DNA of 64,000 nt, taken from NCBI RefSeq assembly GCF_003334305.1, contig NZ_QOWS01000003.1. One strand, 5' to 3'. Shown here piece after piece: positions 6,595 through 6,788 of this stretch; within the stretch, counting starts at the first letter, position 1; every line of letters begins with the position of its first letter. The notes under the pieces were generated by a model. That model was not told where the DNA came from. It saw nothing but the letters and a program-made list of their open reading frames with translations, and searched no databases. Both the position numbers and the translations under genes were made by a program. Source of the stretch: Escherichia coli. GTDB lineage: Bacteria; Pseudomonadota; Gammaproteobacteria; Enterobacterales; Enterobacteriaceae.

Positions 6595-6647
6595 AACGTT
6601 TTACCTTACCTGGTTGAACCGTTGTTATTTTGGGCGACATGTTATGC

Positions 6648-6664
6648 AAATTGGTCAACCATTG
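6648..6664. promoter_or_regulatory. Putative UxuR/ExuR-type operator upstream of gntP
   Basis: Palindrome-like AAATTGGTCAACCATTG within 70 nt of the gntP start; a related half-site pair TGGTTGAACC lies at 6611..6620. Resembles the TTGGT-N-ACCAA GntR-family operator as I remember it. Confidence 0.35.
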
Positions 6665-6756
6665 TTGCGATGAATGTCACATCCTCTGATCAATAACCAT
6701 CGATTACCCTTTGCTGCAATTTGCAGCAACAACCATGAGAGTGAAATTCTTGTGAT

Positions 6757-6788
6757 GTGGTTAACCAATTTCAGAATTCGGGTTGACA
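6757..6788 (+). promoter_or_regulatory. Putative uxuAB promoter region with UxuR/ExuR operator and -35 hexamer
   Basis: GTGGTTAACCAATTT palindrome (6757..6771) followed by TTGACA (6783..6788), about 150 nt upstream of the uxuA start codon. Confidence 0.4.

What the first reader, a model, noticed from the sequence alone, without database searches (positions are those of the whole stretch)
6611..6788. Three related TTGGT...ACCAA-type dyads in the gntP/uxuA divergent control region
TGGTTGAACC (6611..6620), AAATTGGTCAACCATTG (6648..6664) and GTGGTTAACCAATTT (6757..6771) share an inverted-repeat core reminiscent of UxuR/ExuR operators. Two sit in the gntP leader and one next to a TTGACA -35 for uxuA. 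This fits reports, as I recall them, that gntP and uxuAB are both UxuR-controlled, and suggests possible cooperative or looping regulation.
Basis: partly seen in the sequence, partly recalled or inferred. Interest (0 to 1): 0.3.

Follow-up and report, generated by a model that had tools for sequence, protein, structure and literature searches.

The report
Known UxuR operators between gntP and uxuA
Two of the three short inverted repeats are the already documented binding sites of the sugar-acid repressor UxuR in the E. coli gntP/uxuA control region; the third has a different spacing and does not score as a site in this strain.

Summary
The window carries E. coli gntP (5251-6594, minus strand), uxuA, uxuB and uxuR.

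Two are real UxuR-type operators: O1 at 6648-6665 (AAATTGGTCAACCATTGT) and O2 at 6754-6771 (GATGTGGTTAACCAATTT). With a matrix trained only on other genera they rank 3rd and 1st of about 64,000 positions; the 2nd-ranked site lies upstream of uxuR. Both are conserved in Escherichia and Citrobacter. Published work shows UxuR binding to this spacer and derepression of uxuA and gntP in uxuR mutants.

The third string (6611-6620, TGGTTGAACC) is GGT-N3-ACC, not GGT-N2-ACC. It scores at background under both spacing models in E. coli. It is nevertheless conserved, and its Citrobacter counterpart scores well.

O1 probably lies in the gntP core promoter rather than the leader. It abuts a ChIP-seq-supported CRP site, which sits at -41.5 from the start point I predict.

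Looping is untested. The 104-106 bp spacing of O1 and O2 is kept while the DNA between them is randomised, which makes it a reasonable lead.

Verdict: already known regulation, low interest.

The parts
6648..6665 (.). O1: UxuR-type operator AAATTGGTCAACCATTGT (GGT-N2-ACC), centre 6656.5, in the predicted gntP core promoter
   Evidence: 14/18 to the consensus and the best match in the window. 12.6 bits, rank 3, with the cross-genus matrix. Core invariant in Escherichia and Citrobacter. Inverted copy of O2 at 13/14.
6754..6771 (.). O2: UxuR-type operator GATGTGGTTAACCAATTT, centre 6762.5, ending 11 bp upstream of the uxuA -35
   Evidence: 19.4 bits, rank 1 of about 64,000. P < 1e-4 in spacer shuffles. 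The module TGTGA-operator-(11-12 nt)-TTGACA is conserved in several genera.
6611..6620 (.). Third dyad TGGTTGAACC (GGT-N3-ACC) in the predicted gntP leader, 17-26 nt upstream of the ATG; not a scoring operator in E. coli
   Evidence: Background scores. Conserved block in alignment A1. The Citrobacter werkmanii counterpart is TTGGT-TGA-ACCAT, 9/10 and 14.7 bits. No RNA structure.
6666..6681 (.). CRP site TGCGATGAATGTCACA, centre 6673.5, abutting O1; class II position for gntP if the start is near 6632
   Evidence: Identical to the site reported under the gntP/uxuA CRP ChIP-seq peak in ETEC H10407 (PMC4287617). Conserved in Citrobacter.
6639..6644 (-). Predicted gntP -10 hexamer TAACAT (read on the minus strand); predicted start near 6632
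   Evidence: Invariant in the six Escherichia and Citrobacter sequences (alignment). Gives CRP at -41.5. Inference only; no start-site data found.
6752..6767 (.). Putative second CRP site TGTGATGTGGTTAACC, centre 6759.5, overlapping O2
   Evidence: TGTGA flush against the operator is conserved in Citrobacter, Enterobacter R1, Cedecea, Ag1, Erwinia and Providencia. 8/10 to TGTGA-N6-TCACA by eye. Not verified.
6783..6788 (+). TTGACA, the -35 hexamer of the uxuAB promoter
   Evidence: Invariant in Escherichia and Citrobacter and present in five more genera at the same distance from the operator. The simple scan finds no matching -10.
5251..6594 (-). gntP (fructuronate/gluconate permease)
   Evidence: NCBIfam equivalog, 908.7 bits. 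RefSeq annotation.
6934..9659 (+). uxuA (6934-8118) and uxuB (8199-9659)
   Evidence: NCBIfam. RefSeq annotation.
9874..10647 (+). uxuR, the repressor gene
   Evidence: NCBIfam equivalog 'Uxu operon transcriptional regulator', 583.8 bits.
9700..9719 (.). UxuR-type operator upstream of uxuR (autoregulation), with a weaker neighbour at 9680-9699
   Evidence: 18.9 bits, rank 2; the neighbour scores 8.4 bits.

Best explanation
The 339-bp spacer between the divergent genes gntP and uxuAB of E. coli holds two genuine operators for the GntR/FadR-family repressor UxuR, which is encoded 3 kb downstream; ExuR may also bind them. O1 (6648-6665) lies between a CRP site (6666-6681) and the predicted -10 of a class II CRP-dependent gntP promoter, so bound repressor would exclude RNA polymerase. 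O2 (6754-6771) lies just upstream of the uxuAB -35 TTGACA and overlaps a conserved TGTGA half-site, so bound repressor would block CRP and the polymerase alpha subunit. Fructuronate or glucuronate releases the repressor. The third dyad (6611-6620) has half-sites one base further apart. In E. coli it is not a recognisable operator; it is most likely a decayed version of an N3-spaced site that is still strong in some Citrobacter. Shown here or in the literature: motif identity, conservation, UxuR binding to the spacer and derepression in uxuR mutants. Inferred: promoter positions and the mode of repression at each site.
For: Locus identity. Consensus operator used as a working UxuR site in a biosensor: PMC8092373. 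O1, O2 and the uxuR-upstream site are the top three of the window by consensus, rank 9, 4 and 3 with a matrix from five exu-regulon sites, and rank 3, 1 and 2 with a matrix from 40 sites of other genera. No spacer shuffle out of 20,000 gives two such sites. An unbiased enumeration of palindromes upstream of uxuA in 74 loci of other genera puts TTGGTNNACCAA first: 34/74 against 1/74 in coding controls. Phylogenetic footprint in Escherichia and Citrobacter. Footprint within E. coli. UxuR genomic SELEX peak on the gntP/uxuA spacer, with binding lowered by glucuronate: PMC5934670. A uxuR deletion raises UxuA and a uxuAB fusion (PMC9369180) and raises gntP and uxuAB RNA (PMC10016265). CRP ChIP-seq site: PMC4287617. 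The GT-to-AC distance is 2 nt for UxuR and 3 nt for ExuR, FadR, PdhR and LldR: PMC4494728.
Against: No base-resolution footprint or start-site data could be retrieved. The primary papers (Bates Utz 2004, Suvorova 2011, Klemm 1996, Blanco 1986) are not held. The simple sigma-70 scan finds no promoter in the spacer, so the promoter positions rest on the CRP site, on conservation and on spacing. O1 alone, at 12.6 bits, is no better than the best random hit in a shuffled 64-kb window. Its support comes from position, pairing with O2 and conservation. The third dyad is conserved, which a purely non-functional reading does not explain.
Confidence: 0.85

Rival explanations
1. O1 and O2 act as a cooperative pair. 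UxuR dimers on the two operators contact each other and loop out about 106 bp holding both CRP sites, repressing gntP and uxuAB together.
For: The centre-to-centre distance is 106 bp in Escherichia and 104-105 bp in four Citrobacter. The middle ~55 bp is at random-level identity among those Citrobacter (0.50-0.65 against 0.48 for random sequences), while third-codon identity of the flanking genes is 0.75-0.86. Indels do occur nearby: a 79-bp difference in the uxuA leader. In Cedecea, Enterobacter Ag1 and Erwinia the O2 homologue is paired with a second operator 102-104 bp away on the other side, in the uxuA leader. O2 lies upstream of a perfect -35, a poor position for a lone repressor, yet a uxuR deletion derepresses UxuA strongly on glucose. 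A contig in which gntP is replaced by a nanM-like gene still keeps O1. A tetrameric, looping GntR-family repressor exists: Atu1419 (PMC7797058).
Against: No held paper links UxuR to looping, and UxuR is described as a homodimer (PMC8092373). Other loci show spacings of 110, 112, 142, 186 and 32 bp. The lineages with 102-106 bp number only about three independent ones. The length could be kept by the geometry of two back-to-back CRP-dependent promoters. Values of 104-106 bp are in phase at 10.5 bp per turn but out of phase at the ~11 bp per turn I recall being reported for in vivo looping.
Confidence: 0.25
2. The third dyad is a functional operator of the N3-spaced kind (TKGT-N3-ACMA), read by ExuR or another FadR-subfamily protein. 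It would give gntP a second, leader-proximal control point.
For: The GT-to-AC distance of 3 nt is the ExuR/FadR/PdhR/LldR geometry (PMC4494728). The block TTGGTTGAAC is the best-conserved stretch of the gntP leader. The Citrobacter werkmanii and FP75 counterparts score 14.7 and 12.8 bits. N3 dyads also lie upstream of gntP orthologues in unrelated contexts: a perfect TTGGT-CTG-ACCAA in Yersinia and a 9/10 match in another contig, where about 0.01 per region is expected.
Against: The E. coli version is 7/10 to the core, 1.7 bits and rank 230, and matches the ExuR-type pattern no better than 87 other places, against 78 expected. The dyad symmetry is broken in E. albertii, C. youngae and one E. 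coli strain. The N3 matrix was contaminated by N2 sites during iteration. Conservation could instead reflect translation-initiation constraints so close to the ribosome-binding site.
Confidence: 0.2
3. The dyads are chance matches in an AT-rich spacer, or they act as RNA structure rather than as DNA sites.
For: The 12-bp core pattern alone is not enriched in the window.
Against: Full-motif scores, spacer shuffles, cross-genus conservation and published binding all contradict chance for O1 and O2. There is no Rfam match. The gntP leader folds no better than shuffles, z = +0.98, and has no covarying consensus structure.
Confidence: 0.02

Closest known systems
UxuR/ExuR operators of the E. coli hexuronate (Ashwell pathway) regulon
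   Same: O1 and O2 fit the 18-bp palindrome AAATTGGTATACCAATTT with GGT-N2-ACC. They lie in the promoters of gntP and uxuAB next to uxuR, and the spacer is the single strong UxuR SELEX target.
   Different: Nothing differs for O1 and O2; they are the described sites. The third dyad differs by one extra central base and by weak flanks.
ExuR-type sites of the exu regulon (exuT/uxaCA, uxaB, exuR) and other N3-spaced FadR-subfamily operators (FadR, PdhR, LldR)
   Same: The third dyad shares the TGGT-N3-ACC geometry.
   Different: E. coli exu sites match AANTKGT-N3-ACMANTT at 11-12 of 12 by my hand count on the sites. The third dyad matches at 9 of 12, which is the background level.
Two-operator looping repression (lac O1/O3, gal OE/OI; the GntR-family tetramer Atu1419)
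   Same: Two operators about 10 helical turns apart flank activator sites and promoters, and the spacer has conserved length but not sequence. Atu1419 is a precedent within the family.
   Different: There is no evidence that UxuR forms tetramers or loops. The resemblance is one of layout only.
Class II CRP-dependent promoter with a repressor between the CRP site and the -10
   Same: The CRP site is centred 41.5 bp upstream of the predicted gntP start, and O1 fills -16 to -33.
   Different: The start point is predicted, not mapped.

Membership tests
UxuR-type operator (GntR/FadR subfamily, N2 spacing) | Even palindrome AAATTGGT-N2-ACCAATTT with a GT-to-AC distance of 2 nt | tested here: met
   O1 matches at 14/18 and O2 at 13/18, both with GGT-N2-ACC. 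The N2 rule for UxuR is stated in PMC4494728.
UxuR-type operator (GntR/FadR subfamily, N2 spacing) | The same feature, applied to the third dyad at 6611-6620 | tested here: not met
   The spacing is GGT-N3-ACC. It scores 1.6 bits in the N2 register and -1.0 bits after removal of the centre base.
UxuR-type operator (GntR/FadR subfamily, N2 spacing) | Score well above the genomic background with a matrix trained on independent sites | tested here: met
   O2 ranks 1 and O1 ranks 3 of about 64,000 positions. P < 5e-5 for two such sites in the spacer.
UxuR-type operator (GntR/FadR subfamily, N2 spacing) | Conserved upstream of orthologous hexuronate genes in other species | tested here: met
   Alignment A1. 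The motif is the top palindrome in 74 uxuA upstream regions of other genera. The O2 module is conserved across several genera.
UxuR-type operator (GntR/FadR subfamily, N2 spacing) | Bound by UxuR, with target genes derepressed when UxuR is absent or inducer is present | not testable with these tools
   Literature only: a SELEX peak on the spacer and derepression in uxuR mutants. No base-resolution footprint was retrieved.
ExuR-type / N3 FadR-subfamily operator | TKGT-N3-ACMA with AA/TT flanks, scoring above background | tested here: inconclusive
   The E. coli third dyad has 3 mismatches, as do 87 window positions against 78 expected. The Citrobacter counterparts score 12.8-14.7 bits, but with a matrix mixed with N2 sites.
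Looping operator pair | Two operators at a conserved, helically phased distance | tested here: inconclusive
   The spacing is 104-106 bp in seven genomes despite a randomised spacer. Few lineages are independent, and other loci have other spacings.
Looping operator pair | A repressor able to bridge two sites (tetramer or dimer of dimers), with repression depending on both operators | not testable with these tools
   There is no solved UxuR structure; the nearest solved relatives are other GntR-family regulators, PdhR and NanR. No held paper reports UxuR looping.
Class II CRP-dependent promoter (gntP) | CRP site centred near -41.5 from the transcription start | tested here: inconclusive
   The CRP site is confirmed by sequence identity to the ChIP-seq site. 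The start point is only predicted from the conserved TAACAT.

The most novel reading that the evidence does not exclude
O1 and O2 form a length-constrained operator pair, 104-106 bp apart with a sequence-free spacer, bridged by UxuR into a small repression loop that silences both divergent promoters at once. In other genera the same uxuA operator uses a partner about 103 bp downstream instead. The N3-spaced third dyad would be a separate ExuR-type input on gntP. This would make UxuR a looping, higher-order GntR/FadR repressor.
Probability: 0.2. Interest if true: 0.4.

Novelty: already known. Interest (0 to 1): 0.15.

Why it matters
This is textbook-level local regulation of hexuronate catabolism, which contributes to gut colonisation by E. 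coli. Confirming it adds no new biology. The useful corrections are three. Only two of the three dyads are operators in E. coli. The third has ExuR/FadR-like spacing. O1 is better placed in the gntP core promoter than in its leader. The one lead that goes beyond the papers I could read is the conserved operator spacing over a randomised spacer. It gives a cheap, direct test of whether a GntR/FadR repressor usually described as a dimer works by looping.

Tried and rejected
Start-site data: I looked in the supplements of four genome-wide studies and tried a fifth paper. Conway 2014 has no files held. Cappable-seq, Kim 2012 and Mendoza-Vargas 2009 had no entries for gntP or uxuA. Thomason 2015 is not held.

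Primary papers are not held: Bates Utz 2004, Suvorova 2011 and Klemm 1996. I did not try to fetch Blanco 1986.

The simple sigma-70 and terminator scan of the spacer found nothing.

An RNA explanation was rejected. There is no Rfam match, the leader folds no better than shuffles and there is no covariation.

The 12-bp core pattern alone is not enriched in the window, so I moved to full-length matrices.

My iterated N3 (ExuR-type) matrix absorbed N2 sites; its consensus became AAATTGGTTAAACCAATTT. Its scores are only a rough guide.

PPTP-seq (PMC10505187) does not mention these genes.

I considered a PdhR- or FadR-like reading of the third dyad. It matches 9 of 14 positions to each consensus as I recall them, which is weak, so I dropped it.

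I considered CytR for the 6711-6729 palindrome (TGCAA-T-TTGCA). This rests on memory only and was not tested.

Full report
LOCUS. The window is E. coli chromosome. The ORFs are gntP (5251-6594, minus strand), uxuA (6934-8118), uxuB (8199-9659) and uxuR (9874-10647), each matching its NCBIfam equivalog or subfamily model. The spacer and its flanks occur in 5405 of 5426 complete E. coli genomes with the same annotation. The strain is not K-12: MG1655 differs at two spacer positions. A window position x corresponds to MG1655 position x + 4,544,702.

OBSERVATION. The loose 12-bp core TTGGTNNACCAA is not enriched in the window by count: 3 hits at one mismatch or fewer against 2.1 expected. But all three hits lie in the uxu locus.

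I then scored against the 18-bp operator AAATTGGTATACCAATTT, which has been used as a working UxuR site in a biosensor (PMC8092373). The three best matches in 64 kb are 6648 (14/18), 9701 upstream of uxuR (13/18) and 6754 (13/18).

INDEPENDENT MATRICES. A matrix from five exu-regulon sites of MG1655 (exuT/uxaC, exuR, uxaB) ranks 9701, 6754 and 6648 at 3, 4 and 9 of 63,983 positions. The best 18-mer over the third dyad ranks 407.

I fetched 80 uxuA loci from other species. An unbiased enumeration of all 5-mer palindromes with gaps of 0-4, on the 74 loci outside the Escherichia/Citrobacter gntP group, puts TTGGTNNACCAA first. It occurs in 34 of 74 upstream regions against 1 of 74 coding controls.

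A matrix from the 40 distinct sites in those loci gives 19.4 bits for O2 (rank 1), 18.9 bits for the uxuR-upstream site (rank 2) and 12.6 bits for O1 (rank 3). The next best position scores 9.9 bits. Shuffled windows give 0.48 hits of at least 12.5 bits per 64 kb. None of 20,000 shuffles of the spacer gave two such sites.

CONSERVATION. The divergent gntP/uxuA arrangement is found in E. albertii and four Citrobacter genomes. Their alignment shows these conserved islands:
- O1;
- the adjacent TGCGATGAATGTCACA;
- TGTGA plus O2;
- TTGACA and the 40 bp after it;
- the gntP leader, including the third dyad.

O1 and O2 cores are also invariant across diverse E. coli.

THIRD DYAD. It is GGT-TGA-ACC, one base wider than O1 and O2 (GGT-N2-ACC). 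A comparative study states that the GT-to-AC distance is 2 nt for UxuR but 3 nt for ExuR, FadR, PdhR and LldR (PMC4494728). So the third dyad has the geometry of ExuR-type sites, not UxuR-type sites.

In E. coli it scores at background in every model:
- 1.6 bits in the N2 register;
- -1.0 bits after deletion of the centre base;
- 3 mismatches to AANTKGTNNNACMANTT, as at 87 window positions against 78 expected;
- 1.7 bits, rank 230, with an iterated N3 matrix.

It is nevertheless a conserved block. In Citrobacter werkmanii and FP75 the counterpart (TTGGT-TGA-ACCAT) matches at 9/10 and scores 14.7 and 12.8 bits.

N3 dyads also occur upstream of gntP orthologues in unrelated genomic contexts. Yersinia has a perfect TTGGT-CTG-ACCAA 60 bp before the ATG, and another contig has a 9/10 match. 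The dyad is not an RNA element.

My reading is that it is a decayed N3-type site in E. coli with function unproven.

PROMOTER LAYOUT (INFERRED). CRP ChIP-seq in ETEC reported the site TGCGATGAATGTCACA under the gntP/uxuA peak (PMC4287617). That sequence is window 6666-6681, centre 6673.5, directly abutting O1.

On the gntP strand a TAACAT hexamer (6644 to 6639) is invariant in all six genomes. It predicts a start near 6632 and puts CRP at -41.5, the class II position. O1 then covers about -16 to -33, and only the third dyad lies in the leader, at about +12 to +21. Yersinia gntP, in a different genomic context, also has a CRP-like site immediately followed by a perfect N2 operator.

For uxuA, the module TGTGA-operator-(11-12 nt)-TTGACA recurs in Escherichia, Citrobacter, Enterobacter R1, Cedecea and Ag1. 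Shimwellia and a Klebsiella sp. show the operator and TTGACA at a similar distance without TGTGA, and Erwinia and Providencia show TGTGA flush against the operator without an exact TTGACA. So O2 sits about 20 bp upstream of the -35 and overlaps a probable CRP half-site.

No mapped start sites could be retrieved, and the simple promoter scan is silent.

FUNCTION FROM THE LITERATURE. Purified UxuR selects the gntP/uxuA spacer as its one strong genomic target, with a second site upstream of uxuR, and glucuronate lowers binding (PMC5934670). Deleting uxuR strongly raises UxuA and a uxuAB promoter fusion (PMC9369180). It also raises uxuAB, gntP and the exu genes at the RNA level (PMC10016265). The finding therefore re-identifies known regulation.

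LOOPING LEAD. O1 and O2 are inverted copies of each other (13/14), with their strong half-sites facing outward. Their centres are 106 bp apart in Escherichia and 104-105 bp in Citrobacter. The ~55 bp between the conserved modules is at random-level identity among the four Citrobacter (0.50-0.65 against 0.48). Third-codon positions of the flanking genes are 0.75-0.86 identical. A 79-bp indel lies only 70 bp away.

In Cedecea, Enterobacter Ag1 and two Erwinia, the O2 homologue is paired with a second operator 102-104 bp downstream instead. A tetrameric looping GntR-family repressor is known (PMC7797058).

Against this, other loci show other spacings, independent lineages are few, UxuR is described as a dimer, and no held paper reports looping. 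I give cooperative bridging about one chance in four.

VERDICT. Two of the three dyads are the known UxuR operators of gntP and uxuAB. The third is a differently spaced relative that does not score in E. coli. The regulation is already known, so interest is low. The spacing observation is a modest lead that can be tested.

Noticed in passing
window 6711-6729: A perfect 9+1+9 palindrome, TTGCTGCAA-T-TTGCAGCAA, lies midway between O1 and O2. A rough chance estimate is 1e-3 for a spacer of this size. It is present in E. coli, has one mismatch in E. albertii and is absent from Citrobacter. It has no U-tract, so it is not a terminator. No factor is assigned.
   Followed up: partly
window about 6836-6915: A 79-bp segment of the uxuA leader is present in Escherichia but absent from Citrobacter. 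It holds the inverted repeat GGGTTCC (6883-6889) / GGAACCC (6905-6911). Two E. coli strains carry uncompensated changes in it.
   Followed up: partly
L004:1435-3000: In an E. coli contig (strain SCPM-O-B-8794) a nanM-like N-acetylneuraminate epimerase gene sits divergent to uxuA in place of gntP. O1, the CRP site and a decayed copy of the gntP leader are still kept.
   Followed up: partly
window 6690-6745 and L006-L009 counterparts: The middle of the spacer evolves to random-level identity even among closely related Citrobacter, faster than third-codon positions of the flanking genes. Its length stays at 55-57 bp.
   Followed up: yes
window 9680-9719: Two adjacent UxuR-type sites lie upstream of uxuR, 20 bp apart. 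One scores 18.9 bits and the other 8.4 bits. This is consistent with autoregulation.
   Followed up: partly
L089:2270-2450: Yersinia gntP sits in a different genomic context, after acpS. It has a CRP-like site followed by a perfect N2 operator, a second N2 site 20 bp on, and a perfect N3 dyad TTGGTCTGACCAA 60 bp before the ATG.
   Followed up: partly
L019, L021, L034, L035, L037, L048, L081 (150-300 nt upstream of uxuA): The element TTGGTnAGTCCAA recurs upstream of uxuA in Yersinia, Edwardsiella, Hafnia and Serratia. It is found in 7 of 74 upstream regions and 0 of 74 coding controls. The binding factor is unknown.
   Followed up: no
window 46965-50616: Genes consistent in layout with the lgoT-lgoR / lgoD cluster: a D-galactonate-type MFS transporter, a 304-aa ORF with no family hit, and a Zn-dependent dehydrogenase. 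Only weak UxuR/ExuR-type matches lie nearby, at 49410 and 49889.
   Followed up: no
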